The position numbers were made by a program, and so were the translations under genes. DNA of 64,000 bases, from sequence record NC_041906.1, one strand, 5' to 3'. The notes beneath the pieces were generated by a model, which searched no databases, was not told the DNA's origin, and saw nothing but the letters and a program-made list of their open reading frames with translations. Shown here piece after piece: positions 51,502 to 55,529 of this stretch; the first letter of the stretch is position 1, and every line of letters starts with the position of its first letter. The stretch is from Escherichia phage EC1-UPM.

Positions 51502-52008
51502 TTATTCCTGTTCAAAAAGTTTACGGTCAGCCTGAATCTGTTTACCCAACTCAATTAGTTGGCTGTCACGGAGTCTAACAGTTGCTCTGAGTTCTTCAAC
51601 CAAACGTCTGCCTTCTTCAAGATTGTTGTCGAGTCTGGATGCATGGCTTGCAAGACTTCTGCACTCAAAGGTTCCGGCTTCGGCTTGACGTTTATATACC
51701 GATGCTCGTCTTTCAGACTGTTGCATCCGGCTGTCGTAATCACTGCTAACGCGAGCAAGCTCGCTTGCGTAATTACTCTCAGCCGTCTGCAACCGGGAAG
51801 TGAGTAACCCAACTTCATAACTATGGTTTCTTTGGAGAGCATTGTATTTGTCCTGTAATTTTTGCGTTGCCTTTTGGTCTTCAACCTTTTGGGCATCCCA
51901 CTTCTTTTGAACAGTAGACTGCCCATTGGAATTACCCCAAAAGTAAATGGTGGCCCCTAGGACCACCACCAGAAGATAAGGCCAACCTTTAGAGATTAGC
52001 ATCTTCAT
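51502..52008 (-). CDS. i-spanin (Rz-like)
   Basis: N-terminal TM helix ([16 protein letters not shown]) followed by a charged coiled-coil-like periplasmic domain; directly downstream of the endolysin; ORF track start 52029 overlaps the endolysin, internal Met preferred. Confidence 0.55.
51555..51818 (-). CDS. o-spanin (Rz1-like) embedded out of frame in the i-spanin gene
   Basis: ORF in a different frame, entirely inside the i-spanin gene; signal peptide with lipobox-like AVITTAGC, Pro-rich mature region (KPKPEP); start chosen at an internal Met of ORF 51555-51926. Confidence 0.5.
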   Translation of the reverse strand: MKLGYSLPGCRRLRVITQASLLALAVITTAGCNSLKDEHRYINVKPKPEPLSAEVLQAMHPDSTTILKKADVWLKNSEQLLDSVTAN

Positions 52009-52624
52009 TACATGCCTCCAGTGGCACATTGCCTATTCGGTTAGCTACCCAACCATACGTAAAGTCTGGCATGTTTAATGAGGTGTAGTGGTTCAGTTGT
52101 TTGGCATCAAGTAACTTAATCATTACCTGACATGCTGCAACTTTGCCTCGTTTTTTCTGTAATGCTTTATATGCATTAACAGTACTTGTACCGACTTTAC
52201 CATCAACCTGTATTTTAGGGTAGTCTTTGCCATCACGGGACATTTCGTTAAGAGATAACTGCAACCACTTAGCAGGACGGGTTACACCAGTGTTAACACC
52301 AGCATCAACCAGTTTGTGTGTTACAGCAGGAGATATATCAGCGAAAGCTACGAAGTTAGGCTTAAGTACGTAATCATCAATGTATATCTCAGCAGCCATC
52401 TCTTTAGATAAACCTTTCATAGAACCATCCCAACCATATTCAGTAGCCAGAACTTCTTTATGAGTCTTAGCTACAGATTGGGTAATACCATGATTGGTTT
52501 CCCCACCTGGGTCACGAGGATTGTTTACATATCCTCCTTCCATATAGAACACTGCCCCCAGAATAGCAGCGATAACTCCTCCCACTGCACCACCTTTCGC
52601 AGCAAGTTTCTGTTTAGCTTTCAT
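51989..52624 (-). CDS. endolysin, GH108-type N-acetylmuramidase, possible SAR (signal-anchor-release) type
   Basis: Motif EGGYVNNPRDPGGETNHGIT typical of GH108 muramidases; N-terminal Gly/Ala-rich weakly hydrophobic stretch (GGAVGGVIAAILGAVFY) resembling a SAR domain. Confidence 0.75.
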   Translation of the reverse strand: MKAKQKLAAKGGAVGGVIAAILGAVFYMEGGYVNNPRDPGGETNHGITQSVAKTHKEVLATEYGWDGSMKGLSKEMAAEIYIDDYVLKPNFVAFADISPAVTHKLVDAGVNTGVTRPAKWLQLSLNEMSRDGKDYPKIQVDGKVGTSTVNAYKALQKKRGKVAACQVMIKLLDAKQLNHYTSLNMPDFTYGWVANRIGNVPLEACNEDANL

Positions 52625-52874
52625 GTGAATTTTCCTTTGGACGGAATCGTATCAATCTACCAACGATGTTTAAGGCAAACAATGCGATTGCAATATTGGA
52701 ACCATGGGGAATATCTTCCAGGATGTGACGGGGTAATCCTGTCAGCATTGGTTGAATGATATCTATGGCAGAAAACATAATTAGCCCAAGTGTACTAATC
52801 TGAATGGATGCCCATTTCCAGCATCTTTTCCAATTAGGTACTAACTCTACCTTTCTTTTTAGCCTGCGAACCAT
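52614..52874 (-). CDS. putative holin (two TM helices)
   Basis: Two hydrophobic segments (ASIQISTLGLIMFSAIDII and SNIAIALFALNIVGRLI); immediately upstream of the endolysin; start uncertain (ORF track 52940). Confidence 0.4.
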   Translation of the reverse strand: MVRRLKRKVELVPNWKRCWKWASIQISTLGLIMFSAIDIIQPMLTGLPRHILEDIPHGSNIAIALFALNIVGRLIRFRPKENSHES

Positions 52875-53188
52875 GCGAATATCTCCCGTCTTGTAGCAGC
52901 TAATACACCAATAATTGCACCTGCCCCAGCCCATACCCACTTACCAAAAATTCCAGCACCAACCACTTTATGTTTAATAGTAATGAACTCTTCGATAGTA
53001 GGTTCGTTCTTAGCTAAACTATCCTCCACGTTCTTTAGTCTGTTGCCTATGTCATTGATTGAATCCCGTAGTTCTACCAGAGTTTCCTCTAGTTTCTCAC
53101 GGTCCTGTCTGTCTCTTGCCTGGTTATCAAACAAAGTCTTCAATCGTTCCTCCAGTCTGACTAGGAGCAGTTCACCCGATTCATTCAT
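52859..53188 (-). CDS. membrane protein with N-terminal coiled coil and C-terminal TM helix (holin/antiholin candidate)
   Basis: 109 aa; charged helical N-terminus, C-terminal VVGAGIFGKWVWAGAGAIIGVLAA hydrophobic segment; first gene of the lysis cluster. Confidence 0.4.
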   Translation of the reverse strand: MNESGELLLVRLEERLKTLFDNQARDRQDREKLEETLVELRDSINDIGNRLKNVEDSLAKNEPTIEEFITIKHKVVGAGIFGKWVWAGAGAIIGVLAATRREIFAWFAG

Positions 53189-53387
53189 AATATTACCGTA
53201 GTTGTGTAGTTAGTATTCCCGATAGGGCCATATCATAAGATGACTCTTAGATAATACTTAGTATGATGGGATACATCCAGACATAGTGGATGGTATTCAA
53301 CTGTGTATGTTTAACATATCCGGGCAAGTAATCACCCTAACAGCAGTATCGGTTAGGGTAATGCAAACAATAAACTCTATATAAGAA

Positions 53388-53406
53388 AAGGCCCAAACTG
53401 GGCCTT
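53388..53406 (-). terminator. Rho-independent terminator downstream of the 704-aa tailspike gene
   Basis: AAGGCCCA-aac-TGGGCCTT hairpin; on the - strand it is followed by a T-run; coordinates approximate. Confidence 0.5.
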
Positions 53407-53414
53407 AGTTTTAA

Positions 53415-55529
53415 TTAAATCAATCCGTAAACTACATTATGTATTACGACACCGCCAACAACAGAGGAAACATTAAAATTAATTTCAGCTTTGTAGGCTC
53501 CTTGTGGAACGCAATCAACCAAAGCATAAAAGTTGAACGTGTTTACCACTGGGATGATATATCCTATGGAATCCGCAACAGCATTTCCTTGCTGGTCCAG
53601 GAATCTAATTGACGCCAGGGTGGTTGTTGTATTTTTAGCCCAAAAGCCAAGCTGAAAATAACGACCCGGCTCACAATCAATGATTGTTTGAGTGAAGTTA
53701 GCTGCTGCATCTGCTGATGGTACAGATAAAACAAAAGAAGTTGTAAACATTAAATCATTAGGAACATCGTTTGCTGTAGTAGCAGTGACAGCACCTGTTC
53801 CAGTTTGCGAGAGTGTCCAGTTAGATGTATTTACAAACTGTCCTGAGCCATTACTAATACTATTAATATATGGGCTTACAATGCTCCCTAGACTCCAGTT
53901 AGTTGTAATAAATCCTGCACGAGGGAAGCACCCCCTGGACATTACTTTTTTACTTGCACCGCCTATCAACTGTCTTGTGGCAAATCCAGTAGCAATCGTT
54001 GTGTTACCGTAGAGAGGTAATGAGCAGTTATTTAAACTAACTACCCCGTCACCATTACTAACAATAGGCACTGTACTGTAGCCTTCCGGAAGCAAAATTG
54101 TAGAATCTTTAATACTGAGGCGTGAGCTTCCGCTTACAGTAAAGCCTACAAAGCTCTGCCCAGGTTGATACTCAATATTACCGTTAGCAAATACTAGGGT
54201 AGCATTATCACTTAATGCCACTACTGGATCAAAGTAGCCTGCCTTTTTACCTGCTGGTAATGAGCATGAATCAAAGATGAACTGCCCATTCTCAAAAGTA
54301 AATGGACCCCCATTATCAACCATCCAGCAGTGATTGAATTTTATAACCTCACCAGCATTAGCCGGGGAATTAAAGATTACAGAGTTAGTAAAACTGCGAG
54401 AAATAGTGCACTTATCAAACAGGATACGGTATGCATTATCTTTAAACTCAATACCAGCGGTAGATATAAACCCACAGTTAGCTATACGTAATTCTGCTAT
54501 CCCCCCTCCAGTACTACTGCCCAAACACATCTTTCGGGTACCTTTACCTACAAAGGAAATACCTGTTAATAGGGCAGTAGCATTAATGGCATCACGAGCT
54601 GTGTAATCCGTGTTAGAGTTGATTACGGTTAAGTAATACTCTCCTGTTACACCTTCCACTTCCGTAAGGGTACACTTATTGGCTCCTACTAAAGCCCCCT
54701 TAGCTACATCCAGTAAGATAGGTGTACTAATAGTCCCTGATGTAGGTACAAGACAATCGTAACCGGCAGAGTTTACTTTGTTAATGAACGGAGCAATGTC
54801 TCCCGTACCAGTATAACCTGCATCATATACCGTAGCAGTGCCATCAAAGAACTTACGCTTCCAGACCACACCTGCACCGGTGAAAGTTACAACTTCATCT
54901 ACAGGAGTAGTATTAGGAACCGCAATCATAATACCCCCACCAACGGAAGAGCCTGAGTATGAATCTAGCATTACACTAGACCCTACTGTTGCTCCGATAG
55001 AGGCCAGGGCAGTTACGTCAGGTACACTACCAATCAAGGTCATACCATCCTGAGATGCCAACTGAGCACGCAAAATAGGACCCGTTTGAGACTTCCAGTC
55101 CGTGTTGCCAACAGGGTTGGTCCCTTCAACAATAGTTACAGGTAGAGAACCTAAGTAGGTATAACCAATACCATTATGCATCAAAAGCTCATTTCGAGTA
55201 TTTACTACTAAGCCCGTAGTAAATGATTCAGATAAGCATACAAACTCCCTACGTGCAGCAGCCAGTTCACCTAAATCAACTGTACCTGCTGAATGAACCA
55301 GGACTGCCTGCTCACTGAGACTTACAGCAATGGTTCCTACTGGAAGTACAGGCAATGAGTAAGCACGTTGAGTAGCCTTATCATAAATTACTTTGTATCC
55401 ACCTAAATCTACTCCTACAGAAAAGTAGACTACTTCATTCTGCTTAACACCAAACTTACGGGCAATGGCTTGTTTATTGGTAAGAATACCAGTGGAGCCT
55501 TTACCACCTTGAGAGAACATTTCGTTCAT
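53415..55529 (-). CDS. tailspike-like protein with predicted parallel beta-helix (polysaccharide depolymerase candidate)
   Basis: 704 aa, Gly/Ser/Thr/Asn-rich repetitive strands (e.g. NCGFISTAGIEFKDNAYRILFDKCTISRSFTNSVIFNS); N-terminal ~60 aa resemble an internal segment of the adjacent 930-aa protein. Confidence 0.55.
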   Translation of the reverse strand: MNEMFSQGGKGSTGILTNKQAIARKFGVKQNEVVYFSVGVDLGGYKVIYDKATQRAYSLPVLPVGTIAVSLSEQAVLVHSAGTVDLGELAAARREFVCLSESFTTGLVVNTRNELLMHNGIGYTYLGSLPVTIVEGTNPVGNTDWKSQTGPILRAQLASQDGMTLIGSVPDVTALASIGATVGSSVMLDSYSGSSVGGGIMIAVPNTTPVDEVVTFTGAGVVWKRKFFDGTATVYDAGYTGTGDIAPFINKVNSAGYDCLVPTSGTISTPILLDVAKGALVGANKCTLTEVEGVTGEYYLTVINSNTDYTARDAINATALLTGISFVGKGTRKMCLGSSTGGGIAELRIANCGFISTAGIEFKDNAYRILFDKCTISRSFTNSVIFNSPANAGEVIKFNHCWMVDNGGPFTFENGQFIFDSCSLPAGKKAGYFDPVVALSDNATLVFANGNIEYQPGQSFVGFTVSGSSRLSIKDSTILLPEGYSTVPIVSNGDGVVSLNNCSLPLYGNTTIATGFATRQLIGGASKKVMSRGCFPRAGFITTNWSLGSIVSPYINSISNGSGQFVNTSNWTLSQTGTGAVTATTANDVPNDLMFTTSFVLSVPSADAAANFTQTIIDCEPGRYFQLGFWAKNTTTTLASIRFLDQQGNAVADSIGYIIPVVNTFNFYALVDCVPQGAYKAEINFNVSSVVGGVVIHNVVYGLI

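What the first reader, a model, noticed from the sequence alone, without database searches (positions are those of the whole stretch)
51502..53188. Lysis cassette with SAR-like endolysin and out-of-frame embedded o-spanin
Gene order on the - strand is a coiled-coil TM protein, a two-TM holin-like protein, a GH108 muramidase with a Gly/Ala-rich N-terminal hydrophobic segment (possible signal-anchor-release domain, which would imply a pinholin-type holin), and an i-spanin. A lipoprotein ORF with a Pro-rich mature region lies entirely inside the i-spanin gene in another frame, matching the embedded Rz/Rz1 architecture.
Basis: partly seen in the sequence, partly recalled or inferred. Interest (0 to 1): 0.4.

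Follow-up and report, generated by a model that had tools for sequence, protein, structure and literature searches.

The report
N4-type phage lysis gene cassette
This is the standard five-gene cell-bursting cassette of an N4-like (G7C-group) E. coli phage, whose counterparts in phage N4 have already been tested experimentally, so the finding is correct but ordinary.

Summary
On the minus strand, 53188-51502 holds four tightly overlapping genes plus a fifth embedded out of frame. In order they are a coiled-coil protein with a C-terminal membrane segment, a two-membrane-segment protein, a GH108 muramidase with a Gly/Ala-rich N-terminal membrane segment, and an i-spanin. The i-spanin contains a +1-frame lipoprotein ORF, the o-spanin.

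The window is a Gamaleyavirus (G7C-like, Schitoviridae), about 94-95% identical in DNA to phages Bp4, ECBP1 and St11Ph5. The five proteins are orthologues of N4 gp63, gp62, gp61, gp60 and gp60a. A 2025-26 preprint showed experimentally that in N4 these are a pinholin, a lysis regulator, a SAR endolysin, an i-spanin and an embedded o-spanin. G7C and St11Ph5 already annotate the embedded gene.

The embedded ORF is clearly real. Its 56-residue mature part and lipobox Cys are kept in all 10 Schitoviridae loci examined. The i-spanin wobble positions are frozen only where the mature o-spanin overlaps.

Verdict: already known, low interest.

The parts
52859..53188 (-). gp63-like protein, 109 aa. It has an N-terminal heptad-repeat (coiled-coil-type) cytoplasmic helix, the conserved 'Receiver' motif PTIEEFITIKHKVVGAG and a single C-terminal Gly/Ala-rich membrane segment. 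Predicted pinholin.
   Evidence: ORF. PHROG 5211 at 9e-50, function unknown. 68% identical to N4 gp63 at E=3e-54. Receiver motif identical to N4, including the sites of the N4 rapid-lysis mutations T65/T71 (= T64/T70 here). N4 gp63 was shown to be a pinholin. Heptad pattern.
52614..52874 (-). gp62-like protein, 86 aa, two membrane segments (residues ~21-39 and ~58-75). Predicted lysis regulator or secondary holin. An in-frame 22-codon upstream extension to GTG 52940 / ATG 52934 is open.
   Evidence: Pfam DUF7940 at 2e-14 and PHROG 1356 'holin' at 4e-30. 65% identical to N4 gp62. Conserved GGGAGA Shine-Dalgarno 7-8 nt before ATG 52874 in relatives. N4 gp62 role.
51989..52624 (-). Endolysin, 211 aa: a GH108 N-acetylmuramidase with a PG_binding_3 domain and an N-terminal SAR-type membrane segment.
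   Evidence: Pfam PF05838 at 7e-20 and PF09374 at 1.5e-7. PHROG 315 endolysin. 70% identical to N4 gp61. Closest solved structures are 6v3z (Sen1395, 9e-27) and 6v40. N4 gp61 was shown to be a SAR endolysin.
52541..52594 (-). Codons for endolysin residues 11-28 (GGAVGGVIAAILGAVFYM), the putative signal-anchor-release segment. It is preceded by MKAKQKLAAK and followed directly by the EGGY motif (E29).
   Evidence: 50% Gly+Ala, 4 Lys upstream and no acidic residue. 12/18 identical to the N4 gp61 segment; the N4 rapid-lysis site G12 aligns with G15 here. The same kind of segment is present in all 10 relatives examined.
51502..52008 (-). i-spanin (gp60-like), 168 aa: an N-terminal membrane segment (residues ~8-24), a helical periplasmic domain and a single periplasmic Cys116.
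   Evidence: PHROG 6197 'Rz-like spanin' at 6.5e-77. 56% identical to N4 gp60. TGGAGG Shine-Dalgarno before ATG 52008. The Cys is conserved in all relatives. N4 gp60/gp60a complemented a lambda spanin defect.
51555..51842 (-). Embedded o-spanin (gp60a-like) in the +1 frame of the i-spanin gene. It is 95 aa from ATG 51842 (the start annotated in St11Ph5) or 87 aa from ATG 51818. The lipobox is TTAG|C, the lipidated Cys codon lies at 51725-51723, and the mature lipoprotein is 56 aa with Asn at +2.
   Evidence: The mature part is 56 aa with a conserved Cys in all 10 loci, while the signal peptides diverge. It is annotated as gp60.1 in St11Ph5 and gp60' in G7C.
53388..53406 (.). Perfect 8-bp GC-rich hairpin followed by a T-run on both strands, just after the upstream tailspike gene. 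It is a terminator-like boundary of the cassette's 5' intergenic region (53189-53414).

Best explanation
The region is the complete multigene lysis cassette of a G7C-like (Gamaleyavirus) N4-type coliphage, and it most likely works as shown for phage N4.

1. The GH108 muramidase is exported by the Sec system. Its Gly/Ala-rich N-terminal segment holds it, inactive, in the inner membrane, with the catalytic EGGY glutamate sitting right at the end of that segment.
2. The gp63-like protein, with its cytoplasmic coiled-coil helix and C-terminal membrane segment, accumulates and then triggers to form small holes that depolarise the membrane.
3. Depolarisation lets the endolysin's anchor slip out of the bilayer, so the enzyme refolds and degrades the cell wall all around the cell.
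4. The two-segment gp62-like protein is an accessory regulator or late holin.
5. The i-spanin in the inner membrane and the embedded lipoprotein o-spanin in the outer membrane form a periplasm-spanning complex that destroys the outer membrane once the wall is gone.

Shown here: gene content, domain content, orthology, lipobox and dual-coding constraint.
Shown elsewhere, for N4: the functions of each gene.
Inferred: that those functions transfer to this phage.
For: Phage group: 94-95% nucleotide identity to Gamaleyavirus phages whose records annotate endolysin, holin and Rz-like spanin at this position.

Orthology to N4 gp63/62/61/60 at 68/65/70/56% amino-acid identity, with the same order and the same tight overlaps.

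N4 experiments (bioRxiv 10.1101/2025.11.12.688109):
- gp61 complements endolysin defects with either a pinholin or a large-hole holin, and lyses slowly on its own.
- gp63 complements the S21 pinholin defect but not the lambda S105 defect, and is lethal on CCCP triggering.
- gp62 is dispensable.
- gp60/gp60a complement the lambda Rz/Rz1 defect.

SAR features: 50% Gly+Ala, a Lys-rich N-terminal flank and an adjacent EGGY motif. They are conserved in 10 relatives from three subfamilies.

The Receiver motif of gp63 is identical to N4.

o-spanin: lipobox pattern, Asn at +2, and a 56-aa mature part conserved in all 10 loci. The mean pairwise difference at i-spanin third codon positions is 0.15 over the mature o-spanin overlap. 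It is 0.52 upstream, 0.50 over the o-spanin signal peptide and 0.46 after the o-spanin stop.

A single conserved periplasmic Cys in the i-spanin fits the near-universal cysteine requirement of two-component spanins (PMC6139136).
Against: - No experiment exists for this phage, and no dedicated predictor (SignalP, LipoP, TMHMM) could be run.
- A crude hydrophobicity sum did not separate the endolysin segment from the stable anchors of the other proteins. 'Weakly hydrophobic' therefore rests on composition and orthology only.
- By the (-3,-1) rule, small residues at L22-G23-A24 would permit signal-peptidase cleavage. This is my reading of the sequence.
- The N4 data come from a preprint, and the role of gp62 is not resolved there.
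- G7C is reported not to show lysis inhibition, so regulation may differ from N4.
- The o-spanin start codon (51842 or 51818) is uncertain, and neither has a strong Shine-Dalgarno sequence.
Confidence: 0.88

Rival explanations
1. Roles are as in the database annotations and as implied by the first reader. The two-segment gp62-like protein is the (pin)holin that times lysis. The coiled-coil gp63-like protein is something else, for example a structural or 'tape-measure' protein or a mere accessory.
For: PHROG 1356 and many GenBank records call the two-segment protein 'holin' and the gp63-like protein 'tail length tape-measure protein' or hypothetical. Two membrane segments with both ends in the cytoplasm is the classical pinholin S21 layout (own knowledge). 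N4 gp62 does show late, CCCP-triggerable lethality and lets both SAR and soluble endolysins out after ~2 h.
Against: In N4, gp63 complements the pinholin defect and gp62 does not within the normal time. Deleting gp62 leaves plasmid lysis unchanged. gp63 deletion is only tolerated with compensating SAR-domain mutations. All rapid-lysis cassette mutants map to gp63 and gp61, and none to gp62. The 'tape-measure' label is an unsupported transfer for a 109-aa membrane protein. The gp63-like membrane segment and Receiver motif are the most conserved parts of the cassette.
Confidence: 0.08
2. The endolysin N-terminus is an ordinary cleavable Sec signal peptide or a permanent membrane anchor, not a releasable SAR segment. 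Lysis timing would then not depend on depolarisation-driven release.
For: The sequence has a Lys-rich n-region followed by a hydrophobic stretch. Small residues at positions 22-24 (LGA) would satisfy the (-3,-1) rule (sequence reading). The crude hydrophobicity score is similar to that of stable anchors.
Against: The hydrophobic stretch runs right up to the catalytic EGGY with no polar c-region. The orthologous N4 protein is membrane-associated, works with a pinholin that cannot pass proteins, gives slow spontaneous lysis alone, and yields rapid-lysis mutants when a charge is put into this segment, at G12 (= G15 here).
Confidence: 0.04
3. The embedded +1-frame ORF is a by-product of the i-spanin sequence and is not expressed. 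Outer-membrane disruption would be done otherwise.
For: No PHROG or Pfam family matches the ORF. No strong Shine-Dalgarno precedes either candidate ATG. Long alternative-frame ORFs are not rare in shuffles: 21% reach at least 87 aa.
Against: A lipobox ORF arises in only 1.5% of shuffles. The Cys and a 56-aa mature part are conserved across Enquatrovirinae, Rothmandenesvirinae and Erskinevirinae while the signal peptides drift. i-spanin wobble positions are constrained only over the mature o-spanin and relax immediately after its stop codon. N4 gp60 plus gp60a complements lambda Rz/Rz1.
Confidence: 0.01

Closest known systems
Phage N4 lysis cassette gp63-gp62-gp61-gp60/gp60a (pinholin, lysis regulator, SAR endolysin, i-spanin, embedded o-spanin); Awuah et al., bioRxiv 10.1101/2025.11.12.688109; the muramidase was first characterised by Stojkovic & Rothman-Denes 2007, as cited in that preprint
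   Same: Same five genes in the same order and orientation, directly upstream of the portal gene and with the same overlaps. Amino-acid identity is 56-70%. The Receiver motif is identical, the SAR segment is conserved, and the mature o-spanin is 56 aa.
   Different: It belongs to a different genus, Gamaleyavirus rather than Enquatrovirus. The N4 gp63 internal Met13/Met17 alternative starts are Leu here. G7C-group phages are reported not to show lysis inhibition. N4 has gp64 upstream, whereas this phage has a tailspike gene.
Lysis genes of Gamaleyavirus phages G7C, St11Ph5, Bp4 and ECBP1 as annotated in GenBank
   Same: 93-96% nucleotide identity. The proteins are 95-99% identical for the endolysin and spanins. 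The embedded gene is already annotated as gp60' in G7C and gp60.1 in St11Ph5.
   Different: The G7C gp63 N-terminal half is only ~67% identical. Bp4, PD38 and pSb-1 carry an extra ~550 bp with an opposite-strand ORF in the upstream intergenic region, which this window lacks.
Phage 21 S21 pinholin / R21 SAR endolysin and phage lambda Rz/Rz1 embedded spanins (the paradigms)
   Same: It works in the same way: a membrane-tethered endolysin released on depolarisation, and an o-spanin lipoprotein gene wholly embedded in the +1 frame of the i-spanin gene.
   Different: There is no detectable sequence relationship. The enzyme is a GH108 muramidase rather than a T4-lysozyme-type fold. The pinholin has one C-terminal membrane segment plus a long cytoplasmic helix instead of two segments. 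The o-spanin has 4 Pro in 56 residues and no second Cys, unlike lambda Rz1 (the lambda facts are and own knowledge).
TtsA-type GH108 muramidases of Salmonella (PDB 6v3z Sen1395, 6v40), used in type 10 secretion
   Same: Same GH108 + PG_binding_3 architecture. They are the best solved-structure matches, at 9e-27 and 6e-20 over residues ~24-197.
   Different: The alignment starts after the membrane segment (query residue 24). They are bacterial secretion-associated enzymes, not phage endolysins (PMC13284979 abstract).

Membership tests
SAR (signal-anchor-release) endolysins | N-terminal membrane segment fused to a muralytic domain | tested here: met
   Hydrophobic segment at residues 11-28, followed by the GH108 domain at residues 24-113.
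SAR (signal-anchor-release) endolysins | Segment weakly hydrophobic, rich in Gly/Ala (Ser/Thr), with a positively charged N-terminal flank | tested here: met
   50% Gly+Ala against 18% in the i-spanin anchor, and 4 Lys in residues 1-10. A crude free-energy sum was not discriminating.
SAR (signal-anchor-release) endolysins | Sec-dependent export without cleavage; release from the membrane on depolarisation; function with a pinholin | not testable with these tools
   Shown for the N4 orthologue only. It needs fractionation and complementation for this phage.
Glycoside hydrolase family 108 (N4 gp61-type N-acetylmuramidase) | Match to the GH108 profile above the curated threshold, including the N-terminal EGGY motif | tested here: met
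   PF05838 scores 71.7 bits against a cut-off of 21.2. E29-G-G-Y32 is present and conserved in 7 of the 10 loci examined (EGGW in 2; EGGE in the unverified record Jgk1). That the motif's Glu is catalytic is own knowledge.
Two-component spanin, embedded architecture (lambda Rz/Rz1 type) | i-spanin: N-terminal membrane anchor plus a helical periplasmic domain | tested here: met
   Hydrophobic residues ~8-24 followed by ~144 hydrophilic residues. PHROG 6197 Rz-like spanin at 6.5e-77.
Two-component spanin, embedded architecture (lambda Rz/Rz1 type) | o-spanin: lipoprotein signal with lipobox Cys, no Asp at +2, short mature protein | tested here: met
   The PROSITE-style lipobox pattern matches at ...AVITTAG|C. 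Residue +2 is Asn and the mature part is 56 aa. LipoP and SignalP were not available.
Two-component spanin, embedded architecture (lambda Rz/Rz1 type) | o-spanin gene wholly inside the i-spanin gene in the +1 frame, and under selection | tested here: met
   51842-51555 lies inside 52008-51502. It is conserved in 10 of 10 loci. Wobble-site constraint is restricted to the overlap.
Two-component spanin, embedded architecture (lambda Rz/Rz1 type) | At least one periplasmic Cys for intermolecular disulfide bonds | tested here: met
   i-spanin Cys116 is conserved in all relatives. The rule comes from PMC6139136. The mature o-spanin has no Cys besides the lipidated one.
N4 gp63-type pinholin | Sequence orthology, including the C-terminal membrane segment and the Receiver motif | tested here: met
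   68% identity at E=3e-54. The PTIEEFITIKHKVVGAG motif is identical.
N4 gp63-type pinholin | Forms small lethal holes that release SAR endolysins but not soluble ones | not testable with these tools
   Shown for N4 gp63 only.
Phage 21 S21-type (class II, two-segment) pinholin, for the gp62-like protein | Two membrane segments and holin timing function | tested here: inconclusive
   Two hydrophobic segments are present, and the protein matches a PHROG labelled holin. However, the N4 orthologue did not complement pinholin or holin defects in normal time and is dispensable. There is no sequence relation to S21.

The most novel reading that the evidence does not exclude
The G7C-group cassette may be regulated differently from N4 despite near-identical parts. 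It keeps the N4 'Receiver' motif unchanged but lacks the internal start codons of gp63, and G7C reportedly lacks lysis inhibition. The 22-codon upstream extension of the gp62-like gene, read from the DNA that encodes the pinholin's membrane segment in another frame, could yield a long isoform acting as an antiholin. If so, comparing this phage with N4 would pinpoint what turns lysis inhibition on.
Probability: 0.08. Interest if true: 0.35.

Novelty: already known. Interest (0 to 1): 0.08.

Why it matters
It matters little beyond correct annotation. The cassette is a near-copy of ones already annotated in G7C-like phages, and it is orthologous to the experimentally dissected N4 system.

Two practical points follow:
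- Many database records still label the gp63-like pinholin as a 'tail length tape-measure protein' or hypothetical.
- Many records also omit the embedded o-spanin, so this window should be annotated from the N4 experiments rather than by label transfer.

The cassette could serve as a natural comparison (N4 shows lysis inhibition; G7C reportedly does not) for anyone studying how N4 delays lysis.

Tried and rejected
- Synonymous-codon shuffling of the i-spanin gene was a weak chance test. 21% of shuffles still had an alternative-frame ORF of at least 87 aa and 1.5% had a lipobox ORF. I relied on conservation and wobble-site analysis instead.
It is recorded as inconclusive.
- Pfam and PHROG searches of the embedded ORF (both candidate lengths) found nothing. 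The three antisense ORFs (52460-52759, 51559-51807, 52983-53201, + strand) had no PHROG match (not searched against Pfam), so they give no sign of genes on the other strand.
- The sigma-70 promoter scan found no minus-strand promoter-like site in the 5' intergenic region, and fewer sites overall than in shuffles. The cassette's promoter was therefore not identified. N4 late promoters need the phage SSB activator and have poor -35 boxes (own knowledge), so this is not informative.
- Pfam on the upstream tailspike and on the extra Bp4 ORF gave no hits.
- The large protein-database searches, structure prediction and metagenome scans were not used, because the annotated phage records and the N4 paper already answered the question.
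Full report
**What is in the sequence**

The coordinates 51502-53188 coincide exactly with ORF boundaries on the minus strand. Reading 5'->3' on that strand, the genes are:

- **53188-52859, 109 aa.** Residues ~5-60 show a clean 3-4 heptad pattern, with LIVMF at 75-89% of a/d positions against 5-12% elsewhere. The only hydrophobic segment is C-terminal, at residues ~75-98. It is 50% Gly+Ala and has an internal Lys.
- **52874-52614, 86 aa.** It has two hydrophobic segments and matches Pfam DUF7940 (2e-14) and PHROG 1356 'holin' (4e-30).
- **52624-51989, 211 aa.** It carries Glyco_hydro_108 (7e-20) and PG_binding_3 (1.5e-7). The N-terminus reads MKAKQKLAAK-GGAVGGVIAAILGAVFYM-EGGY. That is four lysines, an 18-residue segment that is 50% Gly+Ala, and then the family's EGGY motif.
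- **52008-51502, 168 aa.** It has an N-terminal anchor and a long hydrophilic helical domain, and matches PHROG 6197 'Rz-like spanin' (6.5e-77).
- **An ORF in the +1 frame, wholly inside the last gene.** It runs from ATG 51842 or ATG 51818 to stop 51555. Its signal peptide ends AVITTAG|C, and the mature part is 56 aa beginning C-N.

Successive genes overlap by 16, 11 and 20 nt. The portal gene starts 2 nt after the i-spanin stop. A perfect bidirectional hairpin with a T-run (53388-53406) separates the cassette's 5' intergenic region from the upstream tailspike gene. The three antisense ORFs in the region have no PHROG match.

**Where it comes from**

The region is 94-95% identical in DNA to Escherichia phages Bp4, PD38, ECBP1, PE007 and St11Ph5, which belong to genus Gamaleyavirus, subfamily Enquatrovirinae, family Schitoviridae. 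The 25 kb around it match the same phages at ~93%. The window also contains the 3618-aa giant ORF typical of N4-like phages. In those records the genes are annotated as N-acetylmuramidase or endolysin, holin and Rz-like spanin. The embedded gene is already annotated in St11Ph5 (gp60.1, same start as 51842 here) and in G7C (gp60', 'embedded within ORF60').

**Orthology with phage N4 and what is known there**

The N4 record has gp63-gp62-gp61-gp60 in the same order, next to the portal gene. Identities to the window proteins are 68%, 65%, 70% and 56%. The +1 frame of N4 gp60 encodes a lipoprotein whose 56-aa mature part aligns with the window ORF.

A preprint from the Ramsey laboratory (bioRxiv 10.1101/2025.11.12.688109) tested these genes:

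- **gp61** complements endolysin defects with either a pinholin or a large-hole holin. It causes slow lysis by itself, and rapid-lysis mutations place a charge in its N-terminal segment, so it is a SAR endolysin.
[quoted passage not shown] Its rapid-lysis mutations cluster in a 'Receiver' region next to the membrane segment.
- **gp62** is dispensable, with late triggerable holin activity, and the authors call it a lysis regulator.
- **gp60 plus gp60a** fully complement lambda Rz/Rz1.

In the window the N4 sites are conserved. The Receiver motif PTIEEFITIKHKVVGAG is identical, with N4 T65/T71 corresponding to T64/T70. The SAR segment is 12/18 identical, with N4 G12 corresponding to G15.

**Is the embedded gene real?**

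Chance alone is a weak argument. Synonymous-codon shuffles of the i-spanin gene give a lipobox ORF in 1.5% of 20,000 trials. Conservation decides the question.

I examined ten loci: the window, St11Ph5, Bp4, G7C, Jgk1, N4, Klebsiella phage KP8, Pseudomonas phage inbricus, Erwinia phage Fifi067 and Achromobacter phage Axy11. They span three subfamilies. Every one has a +1-frame lipobox ORF with a mature part of exactly 56 residues and the conserved core [44 protein letters not shown]. The signal peptides have diverged almost completely.

In a codon alignment of the ten i-spanin genes, I measured the mean pairwise difference at third codon positions, which are second positions of the o-spanin frame:

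| Part of the i-spanin gene | Third-position difference |
|---|---|
| Before the embedded ORF | 0.52 |
| Over the o-spanin signal peptide | 0.50 |
| Over the mature o-spanin | 0.15 |
| 16 codons after the o-spanin stop | 0.46 |

That is the signature of two proteins selected on the same DNA.

Two further features fit. Asn at +2 is compatible with outer-membrane sorting (own knowledge of the Lol rule). The single periplasmic Cys of the i-spanin (C116) is conserved in all ten loci, matching the near-universal periplasmic cysteine of two-component spanins, found in 507 of 528 systems (PMC6139136).

There are 4 Pro in 56 residues, three of them in a KPKPEP cluster.

**SAR or signal peptide?**

Composition, the Lys-rich flank, the lack of a polar c-region before EGGY, and conservation of this kind of segment in all ten relatives fit a SAR domain. 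My crude hydrophobicity sum did not separate it from the stable anchors. By the (-3,-1) rule, cleavage after LGA24 cannot be excluded from sequence alone. The SAR assignment therefore rests mainly on orthology to N4 gp61 and the experiments on it.

The closest solved structures are the Salmonella TtsA-like GH108 enzymes 6v3z and 6v40, aligned from residue 24 onward, that is, after the membrane segment.

**How it most likely works**

Export and tethering of the muramidase come first. The gp63-like pinholin then triggers and depolarises the membrane. The endolysin is released and activated. The spanin complex disrupts the outer membrane, and the gp62-like protein acts as an accessory. The steps are shown for N4 and inferred here.

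The main rival swaps the roles of gp62 and gp63, as most database labels do ('holin' and 'tail length tape-measure protein'). The N4 genetics argue against it.

- A SAR endolysin does not strictly imply a pinholin, because N4 gp61 also worked with lambda's large-hole holin.

**Novelty**

This is already known. It is a close relative of annotated cassettes and an orthologue of an experimentally characterised one.

The only mildly open points concern regulation. The N4 alternative starts M13/M17 of gp63 are Leu here. G7C is reported not to show lysis inhibition although the Receiver motif is unchanged. A 22-codon upstream extension of the gp62-like ORF overlaps the pinholin's membrane-segment codons. 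That extension's start codons are a by-product of the invariant GKWVWA codons of gp63, and the extension is closed in Erwinia phage Fifi067, so it is weak evidence for a long isoform.

Noticed in passing
window 52875-52940 (- strand): The gp62-like ORF stays open for 22 codons upstream of its Shine-Dalgarno-preceded ATG (52874), with GTG 52940 and ATG 52934 as possible starts. This stretch overlaps the codons for the gp63-like membrane segment in another frame. The extension is open in 9 of the 10 loci examined but closed in Erwinia phage Fifi067; Pseudomonas phage inbricus was not examined. The start codons derive from the invariant GKWVWA codons of gp63, so a long (antiholin-like) isoform is possible but unproven. 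The N4 preprint mentions a 109-aa form with dual starts.
   Followed up: partly
window 53189-53414: The 226-nt intergenic region upstream of the cassette contains a perfect bidirectional terminator-like hairpin (53388-53406) and an 11-nt inverted repeat (53331-53341 / 53352-53362, 10-nt loop). No sigma-70-like promoter was found on the minus strand. In Bp4 this region carries an extra ~550 bp with an opposite-strand 217-aa ORF (no Pfam hit); PD38, Uz-1, pSb-1 and nithesis show similarly enlarged two-piece matches there. The window and ECBP1 lack this insert.
   Followed up: partly
window ~53280-53500 and the 704-aa ORF 53415-55529 (- strand): The 3' end of the tailspike gene and the DNA just downstream match unrelated phages at 80-91% identity: Yersinia phage CAU_YEP3, Salmonella phage Liang dang 541 and E. 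coli phages PJ16 and YX22. This suggests horizontal exchange of the receptor-binding module. The 704-aa protein has no Pfam match and differs from the G7C gp63.1 esterase tail fibre at this position.
   Followed up: no
window 52859-53188 (- strand); relatives in L002, L006: Many GenBank records label the 109-aa gp63-like membrane protein 'tail length tape-measure protein'. That label is implausible for a protein whose N4 orthologue is a pinholin. Many records, such as Bp4, also omit the embedded o-spanin or truncate the i-spanin.
   Followed up: yes
window 51946-51970 (- strand): A terminator-like hairpin (11 pairs followed by a T-run) lies inside the codons for the i-spanin membrane anchor. 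It is probably a by-product of the GGTGGTGGTCC...GGCCACCA coding sequence and was not examined further.
   Followed up: no
L005 (Escherichia phage Jgk1, UNVERIFIED record), endolysin N-terminal region: In Jgk1 the conserved EGGY...DPGGETNHG motif reads EGGE...DPGRHTNLG. This suggests sequencing errors or a degenerate catalytic motif in that record.
   Followed up: no
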